The notes under the pieces were generated by a model that saw nothing but the letters and a program-made list of their open reading frames with translations, was not told where the DNA came from and made no database searches. Shown here piece after piece: positions 105 to 27,672 of a DNA stretch of 29,783 nt. The DNA is from Octopus sinensis (lineage: Eukaryota): positions 1-29,783 of the forward strand of contig NW_021832888.1 in assembly GCF_006345805.1 (NCBI RefSeq), given 5' to 3'. The translations under genes and the position numbers were made by a program. The number at the start of each line of letters is the position of its first letter. Position 1 is the stretch's first letter.

Positions 105-470
105 AATAGAATACAGTCTCAAAGTTTTGCTTTTGCTTACCGTGGTATCTAAAATATTTGAATGTGTACATGAATATGTATTTCTAAGTTGCCTTTTTAT
201 TAATATACTCATATATTGAATTAACGTGAAGACATACGCATGTTAATGCACATGTTGAAGAGACTCCCCATATGCATAGGCACTTTGACAGTTCAATATC
301 AACGAAAAAAAAAGCTCGCTATTGAGTGTTAGCAAAAGCCATGGATGAAGATGTCCGTAAAGGTACTTGCGGTCGTACGAAAGATGTATAGTTTTTCTGC
401 TCGTGTTTGAAATCAACGATTCAGGCCAACGTCTTTAGTATAAACCACTATGCGACCCATCGAGAAAGGG
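105..470 (+). pseudogene. Highly decayed non-LTR reverse transcriptase fragment
   Basis: Manual translation gives LLTVVSKIFECV (cf. ISLLSxxSKIFE), then a (A)FDS-like segment and KVLAVVRKMY, in RT motif order but with stops and frameshifts. Confidence 0.4.
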
Positions 471-551: not shown

Positions 552-756
552 TATTTCTTTATTGCCCACAGGGGGCTAAACATAAAGGGAACAAACAAGG
601 ACAGAAAAAGGGATTAAGTCGATTACATCGATCCCAGTGCGTAACTAGAATTTATTTCATCGACCCCGAAAGGATGAATGGCAAAGTCGACCTAGACGGA
701 ATTTGAACTCAAAACGTAACGGCAGACGTGGTACCGCTTCTGCCAGCTAACCGCCT
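552..756 (-). mobile_element. tRNA-derived SINE, family A
   Basis: Reverse complement matches the copy at 23225-23464: head aggcggttagctggcaga, B-box gagttcaaattcc, tail ...tagccccctgtgggcaataaagaaata. Confidence 0.9.
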
Positions 757-13145: not shown

Positions 13146-13313
13146 ATTCTTTTCTACTCTAGGGATAAGGCCCCGAAATTTTTGGGGAGGGGACCAGTCG
13201 ATTAGATGGACACCAGTACGCAAGTAGTACATAATTTATCGATCCCGAAAGGACGAAAGGCAAAATCGACCTCGGCAGAATTTGAACTTAGAATGTAGAG
13301 ACAGACGGAATAT
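13146..13313 (-). mobile_element. SINE family A 3' part with an alternative tail
   Basis: Shares the central gatcccgaaaggacgaaaggcaaaatcgacctcggcagaatttgaact segment; tail matches 19287-19340 rather than 23400-23464. Confidence 0.88.
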
Positions 13314-13541
13314 CTATTTCTATTTCTTCACTACCCACGAGGGGCTAAACACAGACAGGACAAACAAGGACAGACAAACGGATTAAGTCGATTATATCGA
13401 CCCCAGTGCGTAACTGGTACTTAATTTATCGACCCCGAAAGGATGAAAGGCACAGTCAACCTCGGCGGCATTTGAACTCAGAACGTAGCGACGGGCGAAA
13501 TATCGCCAAGCATTTCGCCCGGCGAGCTAACGTTTCTGCCA
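13314..13541 (-). mobile_element. SINE family A
   Basis: Reverse complement closely matches 23225-23464. Confidence 0.92.
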
Positions 13542-13562
13542 TCACGATGTATGTATTGTATA

Positions 13563-14658: not shown

Positions 14659-14871
14659 TGCCCACGGGCATATGGCGTAGTGGTTAAGAGTGCGGGCTAC
14701 TAACCCCCAAGATTCTGAGTTCGATTCCAGGCAGTGACCTGAATAATGATAATAACATCGAAAAGTACTTTGGGAATGAGAACCCAGGTTCGAAATTTCC
14801 CCAAGACACCTGATAAAAGCTGGAGGGTATATCAGCCAAAATGTTGTGTTAACAATGAAGAAGATGAGGAC
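14659..14871 (+). mobile_element. tRNA-headed, hammerhead-bearing PLE pseudo-LTR element, copy 1 (ribozyme core mutated)
   Basis: tgcccacgggcatatggcgtagtggttaagagtgcgggctactaac...gagttcgattcc, short (AAT)n, then gacac-ctgataa...cagcc-aaaa; homologous to 17552-17870. Confidence 0.88.
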
Positions 14872-15262
14872 GTAGTAAGTAGCTTGCTTATCAACCACAT
14901 GGTTCCGTGTTCAGTCCCACTGCGTGGCACTTTGGGCAAGTATCTTCTACTATAACCTCGGGCCGACAAAAGGTTTGTGAGTGGATTACGTCGACGGAAA
15001 CTGAAAGAAGCCCGTCGTATATATATATATATGTAGGTGTGTGTATATGTTTGGGTGTTTGTGTTTGTCCCCCCACCAAATCACTTGACAGCCGATGCTG
15101 GCGTGTTTACGTCCCCATAACTTAGCGGTTTGGCAAAAAAGAACGATACAATAAGTACTAGGCTTACAAAGAATAAGTGCTGGGGTCGATTTACTCGACT
15201 AAAGGCAGTGCTCCAGCATGGCCACAGTCAAATGACTGAAACAAGTAAAAGAGTAAAAGAGA
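14872..15262 (+). mobile_element. SINE family B, slightly 5'-clipped
   Basis: Collinear with 2811-3259. Confidence 0.92.
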
Positions 15263-15770
15263 ATGCCAATAATTTAAATATATAGGTCAAACGAAAGGGC
15301 GTTATAGAAAAATGACACATGATATGAAATTAACGAAACTATATTAAAAACAAAAGATTCCACATAGAATATTCTCTGTAGCTTCTTCATAATCTTCTGG
15401 AGTGTCTCCCTTCGTGATATATTTACGGTACACGTGATATATTTTCGGTACGCAGTTTAAGATAAGGAATTATTGAAATTAGTAATTTTTACCCCATTTT
15501 ACCCTATTTTTAGACGTCATCTTTTTGAAACTTGAAAATTATCAAATTAGACATTAGATTGAAGAAAAACTGACTTGGAATCCAACAGAGAGAAGAATAT
15601 TGATTGTCGAACGCCAAAAATTATCCAGATATTTTATTAGTTGTCTTAATTACAATTAGGTTAAAATTTAGTATAAATTTCTTGATAAGTAACTATCACT
15701 TGACTGTGTTTCGAACTCTCTCAACTTCAACAACAATTATGCTGACCAATTTTTACGTCTAAATATAATG

Positions 15771-16081
15771 ATTTTTTTTTGTTTGTTCCTTCTCGAGCCG
15801 CGTCGGGCTCATAAGGGCCGGTTTCCCGGTTTCCTTGGCGTATAGGTTCCCCACCTGGATAGCATGTCGGTCCGTCACAGGTGAGCTGCAAGATGCAGGG
15901 GGAAAGAGTTAGAGAAAGTTGTGGCGAAAGAGTCAGCAAAAGTTCGCCATTACCTTCTGTCAGAGCCGCGTTGAGCTTAGGTGTTTCGCTCATAAACACA
16001 CACATTGCCCGGTCTGAGATTCGAACCCGCGATCCCTCGACCGCGAGTCCAATGCTCTAACCACTAGGCTATGTACCTCCA
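15771..16081 (-). mobile_element. tRNA-derived SINE, family D, full length with TSD
   Basis: Minus strand has A-box tagcctagtgg, B-box gggttcgaatctc and an A-rich tail; 12-bp TSD ctaaatataatg at 15759-15770 and 16082-16093. Confidence 0.92.
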
Positions 16082-17371
16082 CTAAATATAATGTAGCAAT
16101 GCAAAATGATGATGATGCGGTACTTGGAACATAATGGCTTCAAACAAGCTGAAAGAAAATAACAAGAAATCAAAATTTACTAATTTTACCCCACTTACAA
16201 ATTTCCCCACTATCCCCATGTATTGTATATATATTCGGTTTTAATTGTTTTGTCTTTTGTTAGAGCTTCTTCCACAGATTTGTCTAATACCCTAATTAAA
16301 TTTTTATCCCGGATAAATTCACGAACAACTTCAATAATTTCTCACTTCTAAATTGTTTTAAGTCATCCATACAGAAAATAAAGTCAACAATTTTTCCATA
16401 GCACTATAACATGTATATCCATTGGTGGTTTAATTCAGTAAATTTGATTATGGAAAAGTATATAAGATTTAAAGGCCGTCGTCAATGATTGTTATTCTTA
16501 TGGGCATAGAAGTGCTTTAATCATATCATTCATTTTGATATGGTATCATTGATGTAACTTATTAAGCACTCCTCTATCTGTATGTTGTGTCACCAACACC
16601 CAAGAGAGTGATATGTTATCAAATGCTTTTCGGTAGTCAATTGACGTCAAGTTATTTTCTCATTTTGTTGTCTTCAATAGCTCTCTGATTCAATATTAGC
16701 TGCTCTTTACAGCCACTCTTGTATCCCTTTCGGGCATCGGTTCTGCGTCTCTGGCAAGACATTACTGTCAGGAGGTCAACCAACTGCTGTTTGAGTACAG
16801 ATGTAAGGGCTTCATACTTAGCTTGATGGCAAACAGGTTACAGGCCGATGGTTTTGATGTCACTAGGGTTTCGTCCTTTGTTTTGAGGAATCAACATTAT
16901 ATCCATCCTTTTACCAATTCAACTGTTAATTCCAGATTTGTTTACTAATTCATTGAATGGTGCTGTCACTGACTCATGAATAACAGCTTCAAGTGAGAGA
17001 TATTGCCAATCCTTGTTGAACTTGCATTTGTATGCGGCTTTTAACGTATTATTGAATTCCTTGTTGTAAAAGCGCGTGGCCGAGTGGTCAAAAATTTGCG
17101 CTCGCGATCGTAAGATTGTGGTTTCGATTCCAGGACCGGGAGATGCGTTGTATTACTGAGCAAAACCCTAAATTTCGCTTTGCTCTAATTCACTGAGCTG
17201 TACATGAGTTCCAGCAAATGTCTAGAAAGTTAATCCTGCGACGGACAGATATCCCGCTTAGGGGAGGGAGCGTTCTAATCTCAATCAGTTGAAAACACCA
17301 TGGAAACTTTTTTTTGCATTATTTACATTATTTACATTTGACGGATATTTGTCCTCATCTTGTTTGTTATT

Positions 17372-17417
17372 AACACAACGTTTCGGCTGATATACCCTCC
17401 AGCCTTCTTCAGGTGTC
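17372..17417 (-). ncRNA. Minimal type I hammerhead ribozyme (best-preserved copy)
   Basis: Minus strand reads GACAC CUGAAGA A GGCUG-gaggguauau-CAGCC GAAA CG UU GUGUU: stem I GACAC/GUGUU, CUGANGA and GAAA core boxes, 5-bp stem II, and a vestigial palindromic stem III as in PLE hammerheads. Confidence 0.8.
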
Positions 17418-17469
17418 TTGGGGAAATTTCGAACTTTGGTTCTCATTCCTAAGGTATTTTTCGATGTTG

Positions 17470-17534
<65 letters not shown>

Positions 17535-17565
17535 GTTATTGTTCAGGTCTCTGCCCACGGGCATA

Positions 17566-17620
17566 TGGCGTAGTGGTTAAGAGCGCGGACTACTAACCCC
17601 AAGATTCCGAGTTCGATTCC
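17566..17620 (+). promoter_or_regulatory. tRNA-type internal Pol III promoter (A and B boxes)
   Basis: A-box tggcgtagtgg (17566-17576) and B-box gagttcgattcc (17609-17620) at tRNA spacing, with an anticodon-loop-like ctactaa between them. Confidence 0.75.
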
Positions 17621-17651
17621 AAGCAGTTACCTGAACAATAACAACAATAAC

Positions 17652-17683
<32 letters not shown>

Positions 17684-17735
17684 TAACATCGAAAAATACC
17701 TTAGGAATAAGAGCCCAAGTTCGAAATTTCCCCAA

Positions 17736-17781
17736 GATACCTGAAGAAAGCTGGAGGGTACATCAGTCGAAACGTTGTGTT
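17736..17781 (+). ncRNA. Minimal type I hammerhead ribozyme with weakened stem II
   Basis: gatac ctgaaga a agctg...cagtc gaaa cg tt gtgtt; core boxes intact, first stem II pair mismatched. Confidence 0.65.
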
Positions 17782-18573
17782 AACAACAAACAAGATGAGG
17801 ATAAATATCCGTCAAATGTAAATAATGTAAATAAGGTACATAATTCCTCATCTCTTAAATATAGAACTGTACCATGGAAACTGGTTTTAAGATGAGAACT
17901 TACGAGACCTAATATTCATGACTTGTGAATGAAAATAAACACGACCCGCTATATTTGACAATTCTTTGTCAAATATGGCGGGTCTTGTTTGTAATATTAT
18001 TGCGTTTTTCATTGTCCTTTTCCCTTCAAATCCACTGTACTTTCTGAATGTGCTGGATATTTTTGTTCAGTATTTTCTATCATAATTCTGGAATTACCGT
18101 CGCTATTTTATAACAACTCCTGTAAAATTATAAAGTTATGTAATTAAGTTACCTTGTTTTCCCGAAGCCTCGAAACCTGCATGATTTTATGTTGATATGA
18201 TTAGCTTAAGCCTATCTGTAACTTTCAAACTATCTTCTTTCTTATTAGTAAAATGTTTTGATGCATTTTTTTTACCATTTTCGTTGTGATGTGCGTTAAC
18301 TTGAGTTAGTTCAGTAAGGCTTCTCATTCAATTTTAAGTTGATTATTTTCTTTCTGTATTTTTTTCTTATTTGGTCTGGTTGATCATACTCTGAATCTAT
18401 CAAAATCGAATCCGATTTCTTTCAATACTTTTACACTTACTGAATAAATTACACAATTCAGTCTGTTGCTATTTGGTTAGATCGTCTCTCTGAACACAAC
18501 GATTTCTCACACACATATGTACATTCTTCCTTGGAATTATTTTCCTATATGTGACTAAGGCATGAATTTCTTT

Positions 18574-18818
18574 CAGTTCTATATTTACGGGCATATGGCG
18601 TAGTGGTTAAGAGCGCGGGCTACTAACACCAAGATTCCGAGTTCGATTCCAAGGAGTGACCTAAACAATAATAATAATAACATCGAAAAATACCTTCGGA
18701 ATAAGAACTCAGGTTCGAAATTTCCCCAAGACACCCGAAGAATGCTGGAGGGTATATCAGTCGAAACGTCGTGTTAACAACAAACAAGATGAGGACAAAT
18801 ATCCGTCGAATGTAAATG
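18574..18818 (+). mobile_element. tRNA-headed, hammerhead-bearing PLE element, copy 3
   Basis: 12-bp TSD atgaatttcttt (18562-18573 and 18819-18830). Starts with cagttctatattta, the reverse complement of the element's 3' end (17856-17869). Hammerhead at 18730-18775 has CCGAAGA and GAAACGUC. Confidence 0.92.
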
Positions 18819-18850
18819 ATGAATTTCTTTGTTTTATGTTTTTTCGATTG

Positions 18851-19110
18851 TGAAGGCGCGTGGTTTACTGGCGAAGGTATTGCATTAAGTTCGCACTTAT
18901 GATCGCAAGATTATAGTTTCGATTCGTGGACTGGGCAATGCGTGTTGTTCTACAACAAATCACTTCATTTCTCGTTAATCCAATTCACTTAGCTGGCAAA
19001 AATGAGTATACCTGAGATGGAACTGTGTTCCGTCCAGAGCGGCGACGGAGGAGGATATTTACGTCACAGAATCCGTGAAGCTAGCCTCATGAGCCTCTGG
19101 TTCGGGAAGG
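18851..19110 (+). mobile_element. Diverged SINE, family D
   Basis: gaaggcgcgtgg head, gtttcgattc B-box, collinear with 4632-4880. Confidence 0.75.
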
Positions 19111-19286
19111 GCTTTCTACTTCTTTTTTTGCTTTTTGAAGCTTTCTGATTATTAATGCCCCTTTCTATTTTTTTTTATAGTTTATGTTAGGTTCTACGTT
19201 AACACTGGTTGATCTGCAATTTTATCAGACAAACGTGGCTTCAGGAGTACATATATTGTACCTGTATATTTAATAAAAATAGTAAA

Positions 19287-19476
19287 CCTTCCTACTATAG
19301 GCACAAGGACCGAAATTTTAGGCAGGGGCCAGTCGATCACATCGTTCACAGCGTTCAACTGGCATTTATTTCATCGACTCCGAAAGGATGAAAGGCAAAG
19401 TCTACCTCAGCGGGAGTTTGAACGTAATGCTGCTATGCACTTTGTCCAAAAGATGCCAAAGATTCTGCGAGCTCGC
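19287..19476 (-). mobile_element. Diverged SINE family A with the alternative tail
   Basis: Contains ccgaaaggatgaaaggcaaagtctacctc; tail resembles 13146-13200. Confidence 0.8.
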
Positions 19477-19776
19477 ATCATCATCACCATCATCTTCACC
19501 ATTATCATCGTCTTCATCGCAGCTACCGCCGTCACCACCATACCCACAACCACCCCACCTACCCCCCCCCATCATCATCATCATCATTGTTATTAATATT
19601 ATTGATATGAGAAAAGTCAAATCATTGAAGGGAAGATTTAGTCTTCAGAATCGCTTATGGCACGTTTCTCAGAAGCATCTTACCGAATGTAAATATAATC
19701 TTTCAGACACTTTCTTTCACTCTAGTTGCAGAGTTAAATGCATTCATAGCATATGCTTACATGCTTCTACTCCCGG

Positions 19777-19849
19777 CACACACACACACGCACACACACG
19801 CACACACACGCACACTCACATACGCAAACGCGCGCGAGTTTGTGAGTAC

Positions 19850-19890
<41 letters not shown>

Positions 19891-19998
19891 AAATTAAGAT
19901 TCTCATCCAGAAATCTCATTCATGTACATACATAAGCATGTATGTTTTGTATGTATGTATGTATGTATGTACCTATGTATCTTTTCTACACACACACA

Positions 19999-20042
<44 letters not shown>

Positions 20043-20350
20043 TATACGTACATTCATGCATAATCTCTCTCTATAAATATATATGTATATATGTAGATGT
20101 GTATATATATATATCTATATATATATATATATATATAATATATATATATACATTCATACACATTTGCGTATATACGTAAAAAGATGCACACAAGCATACA
20201 CGCACAGATATATATGAGCCTACTTAATTACCTCCCTCCCTCCCCTACCTCCCTACCTACCTCCCTATCTACCTACCTACCTACCTACCTAACTATCTAC
20301 CTTCTTACATACTTACCTGTATACATACATTCATTCAAACATACACACAA
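19777..20350. repeat. Microsatellite field: (CA)n, (GT)n, (TATG)n, (TA)n, (CCTA)n
   Basis: Directly visible. Confidence 0.93.
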
Positions 20351-20655
20351 ACACTTAAAGGTCTAAAAAAAAAAAAGAAGCAGAGTCCAAAAGAAACGTG
20401 TTGGTTTGTGCAGGCAAAGATATGATGAAGTTTGTGAGTTTGGTGATGTTTGGATATGTTTCAATGCCGTTGGGAGAAATTGAATCTGCCGTAGCAGGTC
20501 CCCTCTTTGGTCTGAAAGAGGAAAGAGTCGTGTTTTCATTTGAAAATATCTTTTCTATATTTCACTCGAATGGCTAGTCTCAAAACATCAGATTCAAGTT
20601 TTCCCCACGGCACAGAGGAGTGGGGTGGGGTGGAATTCAACTCACTTGACGTTGC

Positions 20656-20874
20656 ATGTGTGTATGTATGTATGTATGTATGTATGTATGTATGTATGTA
20701 TGTATGTATGTATGCGTGTGTGTACGTACTTTTGTATGTACTTATGTATGTATGTGTGCATTTATGTACGTATGTATACATATATACATAAACACACTTA
20801 TGTATAAATATATACATCTATACATATATACGTATATACATACATAATACATACATATATATATATACATTCAT

Positions 20875-20933
<59 letters not shown>

Positions 20934-21262
20934 CACGTGACCGATCAGGCTATCAGATGTTGCTACATATCGCTGGTCACAATGCGCTTCGCATTGTTTT
21001 AGCCTTCAAATGTCGCCACACAGCTGGCTAAGTGAGCAGGCCAATATATATATATATACACATACATTAAATGCGCATATGCACATTATATATGTAAATA
21101 TATATATATACATATACACATACGTGTGTGTACATCTATACATATGGTGTGTGTGTACTGTCCTATGAACACAAGGCTATGAGAAAGACTAAGATTGAAA
21201 GAGAGAGAGAGAGAGAGAGCGAGAGAGAACGAGAGAGCGAGAGAGGGAGGGAGAGAGAGAGA
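20656..21262. repeat. Microsatellite field: (TATG)n, (TA)n, (GA)n
   Basis: Directly visible; encloses the 20929-21043 insert. Confidence 0.9.
20929..21043. mobile_element. Short retroelement-end fragment embedded in (TA)n
   Basis: GC-richer ~115-bp island flanked on both sides by (TA)n. I recall it as a common octopus repeat end; unverified. Confidence 0.4.
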
Positions 21263-21377
21263 AAGTGAAAGAAAAAGAAGTTGTTAGGATGCTCCCTGAA
21301 CGCGGTCACCGAATATTTCTAAACGTCTCGAGCTCTTCTTGTCCATGTTTTTTTACTCTACCTCTCTGTCATGCTCG

Positions 21378-21520
21378 AAGTAATGGCAATCGGACAAAAT
21401 TTTAGTGGTATATTTTCCGGCTCTTTACACCCTGAGTTTACTTTCCACCTGCAAGTTTAAGTTAGCTCTTCATCCGTTCGAGGATGATAAAATAAGTACC
21501 ACTTGAGGGAGCCGACTTAT
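21378..21520 (+). mobile_element. Highly diverged SINE family A
   Basis: ctgagtttactttcc...ttcatccgttcgaggatgataaaataagtacca resembles the family A centre. Confidence 0.6.
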
Positions 21521-21761
21521 ATATTTCCCTTTAAACCATTAACTGCCAATTCTTTAAAATTCATATTTTTGGGGCTTTGACAGGTGTCTTAAGAGTTAAA
21601 ATAATATATAGTATCCAAATTTCCTTCGTATGTGAATTATTATGGAAATTATAAATTTTTCGAAAAGTCACAAATGGGGATCGCTGAAAAAAAATCATAT
21701 TTATCCTTTTCTGTTCTATTGCAGTAATGACTATTTTAGTTTTTGAAACTATAATATCAAC

Positions 21762-22257
21762 ATACAAAAGATATGCAGCCCATATGACATCAGGACAGTA
21801 TTCAAGAGTAATACAGCACTTCGCAAATATCTCCTTCGAGTAAAAAACACCAATAGAAGAGGATATTATCGAAGACCGCGTGCATTCCATCCCATGCAAC
21901 TCTGTTAGGTTATACAAAGGCGAAACATGCCGCCCCTAAAAATAAGGGTAGAGGAATATCGCAAACCTGTAACACGAGGAAATATTGATAAATCGGGGAT
22001 AGCTGATCATGTATGCAAAAATGGAGACCACCTTCCCCTGTGGGCTTAAGTTAAAATAATAGACCGAGAACACCACTGGAAAATACGAAAACTAAAAGCA
22101 GCACGTATGCTGGGACACAACAACCTCCTAAGCAGACCGAGTGCAAATATAAATAGCATATGGGAACCGGTATTAGGGAAGGATAGGAAAATATTAGATT
22201 TTATAAGCCCTAAAATTCACTCCATAATTGCCCACGGGCATATGGCGTAGTGGTTAA
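21762..22257 (+). mobile_element. Penelope-like element 3' fragment: GIY-YIG endonuclease pseudogene running into the tRNA-like head
   Basis: Manual translation: IQKICSPYDIRTVFKSNTALRKYLLRVK/..RVHSIPCNSVRLYKGETCRP/LKIRVEEYRK..KSGIADHV..W..VKIIDREHHWKIRKLK..NSIWEPVL, matching the PLE GIY-YIG pattern (VY.IPC.C...Y.GET.R.L..R..EH; S..A.H). Ends in tgcccacgggcatatggcgtagtggttaa (22229-22257). Confidence 0.9.
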
Positions 22258-22957: not shown

Positions 22958-23650
22958 TTTTCCTTCTTTCTTCAAATTTTCTTCCGTTTCTCGCCGAGTA
23001 TTTTCCGTACACCTAGGGCAGAGAAGCACATTGTATGCATTCCCAGATTACACACGCAAATTCACAGATAAAAAATATGTATTTAAAAAATTAATAAATA
23101 AATAAATTCATGGATGGATGTTGTTTTCACAGCAATAATGCTCTTCTCAGTACATGAGTCGTTCCAGTTAACACGATTTTACGCACTTCATGTAGGGATG
23201 GTAAGCCTGGTATCATTTCCAAATTAAGGCGGCGAGCTGGCAGAAACGTTAGCACGCCGAGTGAAATGCGTAGCCGTATTTCGTCTGCCGTTAGGTCCTG
23301 AGTTCAAATTCCGCCGAGGTCGACTTTGCCTTTCATCCATTCGGGGTCGATTAAAAAAGTACCAGTCACGCACTGGGGTCGAATTAACCAACTTAATCCG
23401 TTTGTCTGTCCTTGTTTGTCCTCTCTGTGTTTAGCCCCTTGTGGGTAGTAAAGAAATAGAAATAGGTATCATTTCCAAATAGGGTTAAGTGCCTTGTTTT
23501 TAATCATTCCTAGAGTTCCTACAATCACTGGTACTGTAGTCGCCTTGAGATGCCACATTTTTCAATTTCTATTAGCAGGTCTTTATATTTACTGACCTTG
23601 TCAAATTCTTTCGCCGCTATAATGTGATCGCAAGGATGTCAATTAATAAA
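22958..23650 (-). mobile_element. 5'-truncated R4/Dong-like LINE of a second subfamily (RLE C-terminus plus 3' UTR), interrupted by a SINE
   Basis: Minus-strand translation: LLID..CDHIIAAKEFDKVSKYKDLLIEIE..WHLKATTVPVIVGTLGMIK..LEMIP|GLPSLHEVRKIVLTGTTHVLRRALLL*. Confidence 0.88.
23225..23464 (+). mobile_element. SINE family A, full length with 16-bp TSD
   Basis: TSD ggtatcatttccaaat at 23209-23224 and 23465-23480; B-box gagttcaaattcc; tail gaaatagaaata. Confidence 0.95.
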
Positions 23651-23654
23651 CATA

Positions 23655-26600
23655 TTATTATTATTATTATTCTATGTTTGACTTTTGCTTTATATTTGTA
23701 CAAGTTGCTCCAAGTCTCACCCAGAGACCTCAAGAGACAACAGGGCTGGAAGTTCATGTTGTTGTTATGCTAGTGTGCCTATATTTGGGGGGTGGGGATG
23801 TTGTTACTAATGAATGTCTAAAAAAAAAAAGGTTTTTTTTTTTTTTTTTTTTTTTTTAAACCGAAATTATGTTTGTTTTAAACCTTGAGATTACATAGAG
23901 AGTTTTTGCGTAGGATATGAGCAGTTCCCATGAGCACTATTTTTTGAACTTCTGCCATTTTTGGGTTTCCTGGTATCTGAGTTAGTAGCTATCAGCCCTT
24001 TTGCTATCATTCCCAGGGCACCTATGACAACAGGTATTGTTTAGTCTTCAGCTTCCACATTTTGCTGATTTCTATTTCAAGATCTTTATATTTGCTCAGT
24101 TTTTGGTAGGTCTTGACAGATACGTTTATATCGATTGGGACAGTCATATCAATGAGGAGGCATGTTCTTTGTTTGAAGTTTTTCAATATGATGTCTGGCC
24201 TATTTGCATCTATCTTCCTGTCAGTTTGAAGGGTGAAGTTCCAGAGGAGTGAGATGTGGTCATTTTCAAGCACTGGGGGTGGTTTGTGTTCCCACCAGTT
24301 TTTTTCATGGGGCAAATCCAGGTTTTTACAGATTACCCAGTGAATATATTGTGCAGCTCTATCGTGCCTGTTGAGATACTTGTAGTAGGCGCTAGAAGAC
24401 TGCACTTGGAGACCACATGGTCAATGGTTTCATTTGTTGCTTGCATACACGACACGTTGGACTGCTTCTGATCTTTAATATGTGGCCTGGTAGTTTCTTG
24501 TTGGTAGGCATTGATCTTGAGCTGCTATGATAAACCCCTCTGTTTCAGATTTTAAGCCAGAGGCCATTAGCCATTGATGGGTCAGGGCTTTGTCGAATCT
24601 GCATTATTCGCTCTCTTTGGGTATTGCCATAGAGAGGTTTTTCTTGCCATTTATTATTCAGAATATCTAAGGCCGCAGTTTTGGCACGGGTTTTCATGCG
24701 CCTAGCTTTTTCTGTGCTTGTTCTTGTATATCTATCTCTAATTCCGAAATTGGTTGTATTCGGAATTCACTTAGATATTCCTTTGCCTGTTTTGTGACTG
24801 AGTATGATGCTTTCTTGTTTTCATGTTTTGAGACAAGTTTTAGCATCCAGTCCTCAGAGTTTTTCAGGTAGGTGTCTAGGCCAATTGTAGCAATCTTCAT
24901 TGTTATTGCCAGTTGCAAAAGACCACGGCCTCCCTCTTTTCTTGGCAGATAGAGTCGTTCTGTATCTGCCTTAGGGTGGTGCATTCTATGCATTGTCAAC
25001 AGTTTCCTTATTTTCTGTCGAGCTGACATATTTCAGTAATTGACCAGTTAACAATATTGAAACTGTAAGTCACGACTGGTATAGCTAATGCATTGATTGC
25101 TTCGATCCTGTTTCTTGCATTCAGCTCTGTCTTGAGTATTGCTCTCACTCTTCGATAGCATTCTCTCCTGATCCTTTCCTTCATCTCTGAATGGCCTTAT
25201 TCCGTTCCCTTCAATTATCCCTAGGTACTTGTAGCTCTCCGCTGGGTCTAGTTCTTTTATGACATTCTGTTGGTCAAGGTTAACGTTAGATGTTTCTGTC
25301 ATTTTTCCTTTGATAAAGGTAGCTTTGCACATTTATCGAGGCCGAATTGCATTCTGATGTCGTCACTGAATTGTTTGACTATCGCTAGTAAGCCCTTGAG
25401 TGTTGATCATTTTTTGCAAAAAGCTTTAAATCATCCATGTAAACGAGATGATTTATATTTTTATCAAACATTTTATACCCGTACTGCGCATCATTGAGCA
25501 GCTTTGAGAGAGGTATTAAGGATAAACAAAAGGAGTGGTGACAGTGAGTCACCCTGGAAAATGCCACACGAAATTTTTACATCACCAGCATTTAGGGATT
25601 CACTGTCACTGTTCAGAGTTAGTGTGGTTCTCCATGATCTCATACTTACAGTCAAGAAGTTTCGCAGAGTTGGTGCTATCTTATACATTTCAAGGCATTT
25701 CCTAATCCAGCTATGTGGTAGGCTATCAAAAGCCTTTTTATAGTCTATCCAGGCTATTGATAAGTTTTTGTGTCGTTTGTGACAATCTTCTAAGATCATC
25801 TTATTGATGAGTAGTTGGTCTTTACAGCCGTAGGATCCACGTTTACATCCTTTCTGTTCATTAGGGAATATGCTGCTGTCTGTTAAAAAACTATAGGTAT
25901 ATTCCGTCAGGACAGATGTTAGTGTTTTGTACATAGTGTTAAGCAGGTTATGGGTCTATAGTTTTTTGGTTCATTTGTTTCTTCACTTTTGGAAGCAGGA
26001 ATGTAAACCCATTAACTAGCCAAGGAGGCATCCTACTAGGGTGTTGCAAAACATCATTGTACAGTTCTGTTAGCAGTTCATGGCTCTCTGGGAAGGCATT
26101 CAGCCAGAAGTTAGGAATTATCCTTTCTGGAGACTTCCATTTGCTTGACCTCCTGAGAGCAGATCTTATATCTTATACCTTGACACCCTCCCACTTTTGC
26201 TCTTCTAAGGGGTCCAGTTCTGTAGATATTCTGTCAATCCAGGGGGCCTTTTCGTTGTGTGTTTTTCTTCTGCCCAGATTTTATTCCAAAATCTCTGCAC
26301 TTCTTCTTTTGATGGTACAGACCCTGCAGTAAACGCTGTTTTTCCTATCTTCCTGTAAAAATTGTGGTTATTTTTGAACATGTTGTTGTCCTTGAAAAAT
26401 CTAACACGCTTTTCATCTCGCTATGCGGGCAGCTTTGGCAGATACCTTTTGTTGATGGTTTCTATGGTGGCATCATATCAAGTATAGTTTTCATATTGTA
26501 TTTTTTCAGTAATTTTGGGTTTTGTAGGTTTGGTAATCTTGTGAGCCTTAAGGTTTTTCAAATATTCAATGTCAGATCTAAATATTTTAATTTGTTGTTG

Positions 26601-27672
26601 CAGACGCTCTTGCCAAGAAGGCTTTTTGTGGGACTGTTGCCGTTTTCTAATCTTACACCACATAGGATCGTTGAGATTTTCGCGGATGCATAGTATAGGT
26701 GGTTGAGGTTTGTGATATCAACATCATTAACTGAAATTATATCCTAAGTGCAAGCCGGATTTTACCAATTATTTTCATGTTTTGGTTAGAGTTGCGGATT
26801 TTAGGAAGTGTATCACGTTCATCCATGCTGGTTTCTTTAATTTTCAGCCATTCAATCATGATTTGATTTTTTAGCTCATGTAGTTCTGTTGGGTCAATAT
26901 TTGTGTGACTTTCTTTATCTATTTGATGCTCATCTGTCTTAGTGTTTATGATTGGTTCAGGGCGTATTTCACTTTGCCTATCACTATACTAACTCTTTCA
27001 ATCCTCTCTTCGTTTTATCTGCCCTGGGCTGGTCTATATCATTTCCTCTGTATTATCTTCTCTAGCTGCAGCTTCGTTCATTTTATCCGATATTGCTTGT
27101 CTAACCTGATCAATCTCTACTTCAGTCAGTAATTTCTTTATAATGTTTCTTCTAACATTGGCAAGCTTGTTACTGTCTATGTAGGGTTACTTCAGGGTGT
27201 TTCTGTCTCCAGTTTAAGTATGCTTGTACAGTGCTAGACTTATCTGTGGGGAAATATATGGCATGGTAGAAGGCCTCAAGAACTTCTTTATTATCTTCCC
27301 TAGACCATTTTTCCTTCTTTTTCTTTTGATTATTTGGTGATGAGCATGGATGGCCATCTGTTGGAATATTCCGGTGTTGGGGTTCGTCCAGCTCCTGTGT
27401 TGGGAAGATTTGATCCAGTAACTGATTTTTCAATCAGGATTTGGTTCAATTTTCGGGTACGTGGTCTTTTGTAATCCGCGCAATGACCAATGCGGTTTAT
27501 TGTTTGATTTGTTGACCTTGAAGCATGACGAGCATCCATTCTTATATTAGGAGATGGATCTGTCAGTTTAGGGTTCATACTTGTAAGCATTGCTCATAGC
27601 GCCGCTTCTTAAGACTAGCAGATCTATATTCGTCTGATTTTTTTTGTTGTGATAGTTTTATCTCCGGACATT
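23655..27672 (-). mobile_element. Near-full-length R4/Dong-like non-LTR retrotransposon (single ORF: RT, CCHC knuckle, restriction-like endonuclease), frameshifted
   Basis: N-terminal KWSREDNKEVLEAFY; RT motifs EQKGC, GCKDQLLIN, WIDYKKAFDSLPHSW, GIFQGDSLSPL, YMDDLKLFA, YKYLG; RLYLPRKEGGRGL; CRVC..TIDHVVSKC; RLE motifs RHD, RPD, LLID, K..KY; 3' UTR ending in (TAA)n at 23654-23671. Confidence 0.95.

What the first reader, a model, noticed from the sequence alone, without database searches (positions are those of the whole stretch)
14659..22257. A Penelope-like element whose pseudo-LTR is a tRNA-derived Pol III head plus a hammerhead ribozyme, spreading as SINE-like short copies
Seen: the 29-mer tgcccacgggcatatggcgtagtggttaa starts the short elements at 14659 and 17552, appears clipped at 18588, and directly follows the GIY-YIG remnant at 22229. 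The short elements read A-box/B-box head, (AAT)n, hammerhead, tail. Established: PLEs encode RT plus GIY-YIG and carry minimal type I hammerheads in their pLTRs, while tRNA-headed SINEs normally depend on LINEs. Inference: this PLE lineage captured a tRNA or SINE head into its pLTR, giving a unit that could be Pol III-transcribed, ribozyme-processed and PLE-mobilised. I cannot tell whether this has been described before.
Basis: partly seen in the sequence, partly recalled or inferred. Interest (0 to 1): 0.9.

Follow-up and report, generated by a model that had tools for sequence, protein, structure and literature searches.

The report
Penelope retrotransposon with tRNA-type promoter
This is an extinct, high-copy jumping gene of the Penelope type whose RNA begins at a piece borrowed from a transfer-RNA gene, and whose sequence suggests that the cell's small-RNA polymerase may have transcribed even its protein-coding part, which is not expected of such elements.

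Summary
The 29-mer, (AAT)n tract and minimal hammerhead belong to the pseudo-LTR of one high-copy Penelope/Poseidon-like family. The head follows the ORF end in 18 of 19 RT-anchored copies that reach it, and is tRNA-like (perfect A/B boxes, cloverleaf lost). It lies ~110 nt upstream of the ORF start, so it sits where the promoter should be. Of 55 arms that reach the head, 45 stop there (18% expected), so the template RNA began there. The short copies are not a separate SINE. They carry Penelope marks (two 3' ends ~30 nt apart, tail-out inverted pairs, target duplications), most are truncated before the head, and they span the ribozyme cut site. New here: the sense strand of the whole 2.6-kb unit has no shared TTTT run (0.3-0.4/kb, private; related elements 3.3/kb; P about 0.03-0.0002 for one ancestor). 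Best reading: the head is a Pol III promoter for the full-length RNA, and short copies come from internal RT initiation near its 5' end. No transcription data were obtainable. Ten literature searches and three scan look-ups found no description; Repbase/Dfam could not be checked.

The parts
14659..14871 (+). Short pLTR copy: tRNA-like head from 14666 (A box 14673, B box 14719), short (AAT)n, ORF start codon 14776, degenerate hammerhead core 14810; cut off by a different SINE-like element at 14872
17297..17308 (.). Left copy of a 12-nt duplication (ACCATGGAAACT) flanking the inverted pair, read as a target-site duplication; about 10 nt separate it from the arm
17319..17551 (-). Inverted (tail-out) arm of the same pLTR, without most of the head; holds the one intact minimal type I hammerhead of the window (17417-17372: 5-bp stem I, 6-bp stem II, core CUGAAGA...GAAA-CG-UU)
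17552..17870 (+). Direct pLTR arm: palindrome TGCCC-AC-GGGCA, tRNA-like head 17559-17632 (A box 17566, B box 17611), (AAT)n 17637-17686, decayed ORF start, hammerhead core 17741, ends at the second (tail) 3' end
17871..17882 (.). Right copy of the 12-nt duplication
18587..18821 (+). Short pLTR copy starting 2 nt before the tRNA-like start (A box 18596, B box 18641), hammerhead core mutated at 18735, ends at the first 3' end
21762..22206 (+). 5'-truncated, frameshifted C-terminal remnant of the ORF (GIY-YIG-type endonuclease); the family's stop codon corresponds to 22204-22206
22207..22257 (+). 22-nt spacer plus first 29 nt of the pLTR head; the rest of this pLTR is missing from the window

Best explanation
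All the pieces are decayed copies of one extinct Penelope/Poseidon-like retrotransposon family whose ~2.65-kb unit reads: tRNA-like head, (AAT)n, start codon, hammerhead inside the first codons, two RT-start sites, RT, GIY-YIG, stop, and then the head of the next unit (shown). The template RNA began at the head, about 7 nt before the tRNA-like sequence (strongly inferred). The head most likely acted as an internal Pol III (A/B-box) promoter, and the unit stayed free of TTTT terminators so that Pol III could read through the ORF into the next pLTR (inferred). Because Penelope RT starts inside the ORF's first ~170 nt, it can start at the site nearest the RNA's 5' end and run off at the head, giving the many <=270-nt copies; starting one unit further on gives ORF-bearing copies (inferred from PMC11167929). 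The 5'-terminal palindrome lets the finished cDNA fold back or pair with a second cDNA, which gives the hairpin junctions (inferred). The hammerhead does not set copy ends (shown). How the protein was translated is open; a capped read-through transcript could have supplied it.
For: Head follows ORF end in 28 of 29 DNA-anchored loci plus a partial 29th and 18 of 19 RT-protein-anchored loci that reach it. RVT_1 E=1.2e-9. Start codon in frame with the ORF body, hammerhead inside it, as reported for the anole element (PMC11167929). 5' ends: 45 of 55 arms reaching +10 end between +10 and -18, expected 18%, P~1e-24; only 1 of the 10 that pass ends in the next 60 nt. Three ORF-bearing copies (L161, L171, L173) also start at the head, two (L179, L183) extend into a preceding ORF end. 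3' ends: 40 of 90 at +228..244, 47 of 90 at +256..272. 52 of 90 have an adjacent inverted arm; 18 of 42 pairs share a >=8-nt flank word, shuffled mean 1.2. Head versus host tRNA: z 6.9-7.8, profile E=4.9e-5. T4: 64 runs in 144,756 aligned nt, none shared by more than 7 of 54 copies; 3.28/kb in 57 T-matched related elements, 1 of 44 long ones with none; 3-6 per 1,760 nt in another PLE family of this genome; 23 observed versus 106 under synonymous shuffling.
Against: No transcript was seen: no raw-read RNA run was offered. Copies share one ancestor, so the T4 test has one independent unit: expected 3.5 to 8.7 runs, P about 0.03 to 0.0002 depending on the null; two of three single long copies are not significant alone (P 0.29, 0.34); TTT runs are also only half as common as in controls (6.7 vs 12.3/kb), so a general T-run bias is possible; one headless relative (L256) has no T4 in 1,906 nt. 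A pile-up of 5' ends marks a start site but not the polymerase, and the palindrome at that place could attract template switches. Pol III transcripts are uncapped and known Pol III retroelements are short (100-700 bp SINEs, TRIMs up to 1,263 bp; PMC10886601 passages). The internal-initiation model is borrowed from another species' element.
Confidence: 0.55

Rival explanations
1. Two promoters: Pol III makes only a short head-to-tail RNA (a built-in SINE), while the full-length RNA is made by Pol II from the pLTR or by read-through. The lack of TTTT in the ORF is chance or general codon bias.
For: Heads outnumber ORF ends about 5-10 fold (4,938 vs 937 exact 20-mers); known Penelope promoters are Pol II type (PMC8557442 passages); TTT runs are also low; weakest null gives only P~0.03.
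Against: A Pol III start at the head has no terminator to stop at before the ORF's end; ORF-bearing copies also start at the head (3 of 5 that reach it); in the anole element the RNA needs sequence beyond the RT-start sites (PMC11167929), which short genomic copies lack, so they should be dead ends.
Confidence: 0.2
2. The head is a passenger: a SINE or tRNA fragment that inserted into the 3' UTR of a master copy at or next to an ordinary Pol II start site; the A/B boxes played no part in transcription.
For: tRNA-derived SINEs are dense in this genome (several in the window); the pLTR normally holds the start site (PMC6765202 passages); the family may descend from few masters (pairwise identity 0.90-0.98, mean 0.925).
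Against: A and B boxes are perfect while the cloverleaf is lost; 5' ends sit ~14 nt upstream of the A box, the Pol III geometry (recalled); 118-nt leader with no TATA-like box noticed, unlike relatives L247 and L320 (by eye); T4 depletion unexplained; no donor SINE with the same head and another tail among 30 head-anchored loci.
Confidence: 0.15
3. No start site lies at the head; the palindrome TGCCC-AC-GGGCA is simply a hot spot where RT stalls or switches template, so ordinary truncation piles up there.
For: 15 loci show fold-back junctions at the palindrome, 6 of them 15 nt or longer; hazard already rises at +11..+30 in direct arms.
Against: 33 of 70 head rows start at -3..0 or later with no palindrome partner; a 4-5 bp stem is too weak to stop ~80% of RT passes (inference); arms that pass it then truncate slowly.
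Confidence: 0.1

Closest known systems
Penelope/Poseidon PLEs, e.g. the green anole element PAc (PMC11167929; parts 1-2 of 4 read, plus passages)
   Same: Single ORF with RT and C-terminal GIY-YIG; hammerhead overlapping the ORF start; two 3' ends ~30 nt apart; tandem and inverted copies; hammerhead cleavage not needed for insertion
   Different: pLTR begins with a tRNA-derived A/B-box head; sense strand free of shared TTTT; the paper has no occurrence of 'tRNA' or 'Pol III'
Schistosoma Sm-alpha / Sj-alpha elements (seen only through review passages, PMC6765202; original paper not held)
   Same: Pol III-type promoter followed by a hammerhead in a short repeat
   Different: Those are non-coding tandem repeats released by ribozyme cleavage; here the unit is the pLTR of a coding PLE, dispersed or inverted, and spans the cut site
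TRIMp3 elements Helenus, Ajax, Cassandra (PMC10886601 passages)
   Same: Small-RNA-derived Pol III promoter captured inside a terminal repeat, probably by SINE insertion
   Different: They are non-autonomous LTR elements of at most ~1.3 kb; this is a PLE with a ~2.5-kb ORF downstream of the promoter
Non-LTR retrozymes as non-autonomous PLE derivatives (bioRxiv 10.64898/2026.07.22.740005; parts 1-3 of 5 read)
   Same: Short hammerhead-bearing copies related to PLE pLTRs
   Different: Defined by head-to-tail tandem units; no tRNA head mentioned in the parts read; copies here are solo or tail-out pairs
tRNA-derived SINEs (SINE2)
   Same: tRNA-like head with A and B boxes, lost cloverleaf, 3' part shared with the partner element
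   Different: No simple-repeat or poly(A) 3' end, PLE rather than LINE partner, and the head belongs to the autonomous element itself

Membership tests
Penelope-like elements (EN+, Penelope/Poseidon type) | Single ORF with PLE-type RT | tested here: met
   RVT_1 E=1.2e-9; 141 homologues with the same domain set, including an Anolis protein at 40%; profile hits telomerase RT weakly, E=0.0016
Penelope-like elements (EN+, Penelope/Poseidon type) | C-terminal GIY-YIG endonuclease | tested here: met
   This family's own segment has no Pfam hit, but aligns with a PF01541-annotated relative (E=6e-16) and 5 of 24 aligned relatives hit PF01541, best 1.4e-4
Penelope-like elements (EN+, Penelope/Poseidon type) | pLTR, tandem and inverted 5'-truncated copies, 30-40-nt tail | tested here: met
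Penelope-like elements (EN+, Penelope/Poseidon type) | Minimal type I hammerhead in the pLTR | tested here: met
   Core, 5-bp stem I, 6-bp stem II, palindromic minimal stem III by sequence and fold match the description in PMC4209133 (part 1 of 4 read); Rfam gives no hit; cleavage activity not testable
Penelope-like elements (EN+, Penelope/Poseidon type) | Placement in the Poseidon clade against named references | tested here: inconclusive
   Tree groups it 100/99 with four unnamed proteins, inside a cluster with Anolis proteins; no named Repbase reference was available
Penelope-like elements (EN+, Penelope/Poseidon type) | Pol II promoter with 5'-UTR intron (D. virilis Penelope, Chlamys-3) | tested here: inconclusive
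   Only ~118 nt lie between the 5' pile-up and the start codon, filled by head and (AAT)n; no RNA data
tRNA-derived SINE (SINE2) | tRNA-derived head with A and B boxes | tested here: met
   parent isotype unsettled (Arg-TCT best, Cys close, only 6 isotypes among 27 host tRNAs sampled)
tRNA-derived SINE (SINE2) | Non-autonomous family separate from its partner, with LINE-type 3' end | tested here: not met
   Head is part of the coding element; 3' ends are PLE RT-start sites
tRNA-derived SINE (SINE2) | Transcribed by Pol III | not testable with these tools
   Indirect support only; RNA runs offered were contigs of uncertain type
Non-LTR retrozyme / Sm-alpha type | Head-to-tail tandem units with ends set by hammerhead cleavage | tested here: not met
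   2 of 40 copies start within 5 nt of the cut, 37 span it; neighbouring arms are mostly inverted

The most novel reading that the evidence does not exclude
An autonomous, protein-coding retrotransposon whose whole ~2.9-kb RNA (promoter, ORF and next pLTR) was made by RNA polymerase III from a captured tRNA promoter, purged of TTTT terminators, with a 5' palindrome that primes second-strand synthesis by fold-back; its SINE-like copies are by-products of its own internal RT initiation.
Probability: 0.4. Interest if true: 0.85.

Novelty: new variant of a known kind. Interest (0 to 1): 0.7.

Why it matters
Autonomous retrotransposons are taken to use Pol II (or Pol I read-through for R2, recalled), and Pol III retroelements are short and non-coding. 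A Penelope element that switched to a tRNA promoter and kept a terminator-free ORF would be a natural case of a long Pol III coding template and would raise the question of how it was translated. It also gives a route to SINE-like repeats from inside an autonomous element, and a place where such repeats are likely mislabelled as SINEs. The mapped 5' end, fold-back junctions and target duplications bear on the open question of how PLE inverted insertions form. Absence of TTTT in an ORF is a cheap genome-wide screen for further cases.

Tried and rejected
ARAGORN and Rfam: no tRNA or hammerhead call; microRNA hits are simple repeats. One search had a parsing error and was replaced. The A/B-box pattern failed its positive control (0 of 30) and was corrected (18 of 27 own, 0 of 22 controls). 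Idea that the ORF's stop codon lies in the A box: true only of the frameshifted window copy. Idea that the hammerhead sets 5' ends: rejected. Donor SINE with the same head: none among 30 loci; the closest other head in the window aligns only at z=5.6. Expression: no RNA holder on record was listed; the one read-laying run (69) used L179 in the wrong orientation, covered pLTR plus ORF start, and returned only contigs, which cannot show strand or start; pLTR-to-ORF depth was similar in the guessed-RNA runs and the unlabelled run; not used as evidence. No relative of the closest protein in viral contigs; DNA of the four closest proteins could not be obtained. Protein search for a headless sister family in G000 returned only this family (30 of 30 loci). 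Literature: ten searches found no PLE with a tRNA head; the Octopus vulgaris repeat paper (PMC13282606, part 1 of 3 and one supplement searched), PMC8967140 and PMC6962438 (passages) give class totals only. Repbase, Dfam, subscription journals and bioRxiv supplements could not be seen and may hold this family. The scan's own index gave one unrelated note and two blanks.
Full report
Setting. The window is a whole 29.8-kb contig of a 2.72-Gb genome, rich in microsatellites and repeats. Positions written +n or -n count from the first base of the tRNA-like sequence (window 17559).

The observation. The 29-mer is exact at 14659, 17552 and 22229 and clipped at 18587. A and B boxes are perfect in the three longer copies. 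That arm holds the window's only hammerhead that folds as such; folding energies are not exceptional, so the identification rests on the core sequence and on the minimal type I description in PMC4209133. ARAGORN and Rfam see nothing. Against 27 distinct host tRNA sequences, the three heads align end to end with z 6.9-7.8, best to tRNA-Arg(TCT) with Cys close behind, and a profile of those tRNAs finds them at E=4.9e-5, 0.006 and 0.04. The stems no longer pair.

The head belongs to the element. A search with the ORF remnant gave 3,177 candidates; 28 of the 29 other top loci have the head right after the ORF and the 29th has its first 22 nt. That query held part of the head, so I repeated the test with a foreign RT protein: all 30 loci were this family, and after dropping 4 duplicates, 19 of 26 reach the ORF end and 18 of those have the head. 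Upstream the copies are truncated at scattered points up to the RT (RVT_1). The stop codon is 29 nt before +0. Downstream of the head and (AAT)n, a start codon at about +110 opens a frame that runs through the hammerhead and 'tail' into the ORF body, and resembles the N-terminus of a related protein. So head, hammerhead and tail are the 5' end of the next unit, as in the anole element, where the ORF starts at the hammerhead and RT initiates at two internal sites (PMC11167929). Among 79 related loci from metagenomes, 48 reach the C-terminus and 22 show a hammerhead core within 800 nt; none of the 22 spacers has an A/B pair or a tRNA-profile hit, against 18 of 27 own loci by the same pattern.

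Copy numbers. Exact matches: 3' pLTR 19-mer 12,175; head 20-mer 4,938; ORF-end 20-mer 937; ORF 20-mer just past the tail 105; hammerhead 34-mer 1,551; all reversed controls 0. With rough retention rates that is about 19,000 heads and 1,900 ORF ends. Seven of 30 head-anchored loci have the ORF upstream (by eye; three of the 30 repeat another locus or arm). Mean pairwise identity is 0.925 and no intact ORF appeared among the loci fetched.

Where copies end. I took 90 of the first 91 listed hammerhead matches on contig C1. 3' ends fall in two groups ~30 nt apart, 40 and 47 of 90, the PLE tail signature. 52 of 90 have an adjacent inverted arm, and 18 of 42 scorable pairs share a flank word of 8 nt or more against 1.2 in shuffles. 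58 of 90 direct arms end before +10, 22 of them in or at the (AAT)n tract. Of arms that reach +10, 26 of 32 direct and 19 of 23 inverted end by -18; pooled 45 of 55 against 18% from the rate over +70..+11. Of five ORF-bearing copies that reach the head, three start there and two extend into a preceding ORF end. Junctions at the head are often fold-backs around TGCCC-AC-GGGCA: 15 loci at 7 nt or more, 6 at 15 nt or more, while 33 of 70 rows start at -3 or later without it (some insertions appear on both strands). For the ribozyme I took 40 tail-anchored loci, skipping listed places already fetched: 2 start within 5 nt of the predicted cut, about the background rate, and 37 span it.

Which polymerase. 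Pol III stops at four or more T on the sense strand (recalled). One near-full copy has none in 2,621 nt against 3.5 expected (P=0.01); two shorter copies have one each (not significant); a LINE in the window has 10 against 5.2. Across all fetched copies there are 64 runs in 144,756 aligned bases, at coverage 31 or more, and no site is shared by more than 7 of 54 copies, so they look like later mutations. The 57 of 79 related loci with matching T content have 3.28 per kb, and 1 of 44 long ones has none; another PLE family in this genome has 3-6 per 1,760 nt. Synonymous shuffling predicts 106 (own codons) or 153 (other family's codons) where 23 are seen. Because all copies descend from one lineage, the fair statement is zero shared runs where 3.5-8.7 are expected, P about 0.03 to 0.0002. 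TTT runs are also halved. This is suggestive and independent of the A/B boxes, not proof. No usable RNA data were found.

Mechanism. Shown: architecture, linkage, end positions, PLE insertion marks, no role of the cut site in copy ends. Inferred: RNA start at about -7; Pol III as the polymerase for the whole unit (0.55); short copies as run-off products from the first internal RT-start site; fold-back priming at the 5' palindrome. Rivals: Pol III for a short RNA only (0.2), passenger head at a Pol II start (0.15), palindrome hot spot with no start site (0.1). Translation is unexplained.

Comparison and novelty. It is a PLE by RT, endonuclease, pLTR, tail and hammerhead; Poseidon placement is likely but not tested against named references. 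It is not a SINE or a retrozyme by their defining features, though the short copies look like one. The parts have precedents: Pol III promoter plus hammerhead in schistosome repeats, small-RNA promoters inside LTRs of non-autonomous TRIMs, PLE-derived retrozymes. I found no report of the combination in a coding PLE in ten searches, without access to Repbase or Dfam. Verdict: new variant of a known kind, interest 0.7.

Noticed in passing
window 16012-16075 (-): Strong match to the host tRNA profile (E=2.4e-11) inside a longer repeat; the head of another SINE-like family, not called by ARAGORN.
   Followed up: no
window 14872-15020; also L333, L341, L369, L388: A different abundant SINE-like element interrupts or directly follows this family's pLTR in several loci.
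   Followed up: no
window 552-738, 13310-13546, 23233-23469; 17068-17150; 18854-18940: Further dispersed repeats with tRNA-like or B-box-like starts.
   Followed up: partly
window 24000-27600 (-): Decayed LINE-like element with an RT domain (RVT_1 E=2.3e-10); used as a T-run control.
   Followed up: partly
L214, L218, L220, L221, L225, L229, L230, L233-L243: A second, much younger PLE family in G000 (open frames of ~781 aa) with no tRNA head seen, a hammerhead-like core starting with U instead of C, T-runs in its 3' region and a variable tandem-repeat 3' UTR.
   Followed up: partly
L256 3001-4906: A related PLE from a metagenome contig with no TTTT in 1,906 coding bases but a T-rich, headless 3' UTR; the one exception among 44 long controls.
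   Followed up: partly
(AAT)n tract, e.g. L011, L042, L046, L349: The tract expands to hundreds of bases in some copies and often holds or adjoins other retroelement ends; 22 of 90 arms end at it.
   Followed up: no
window 17564-17572: The head holds a two-codon upstream frame (ATG GCG TAG) overlapping the A box; any effect on translation is unknown.
   Followed up: no
L017/L061, L030, L155-L157, L195-L197: One near-full-length insertion with its flanks recurs at 96-98.5% identity on C1 and three small contigs: segmental duplication or unmerged haplotypes.
   Followed up: no
L140, L223, L224: A cluster of tRNA-Cys genes (listing) and two GIY-YIG hits that look like host repair-nuclease exons (SLX1-like, name recalled).
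   Followed up: no
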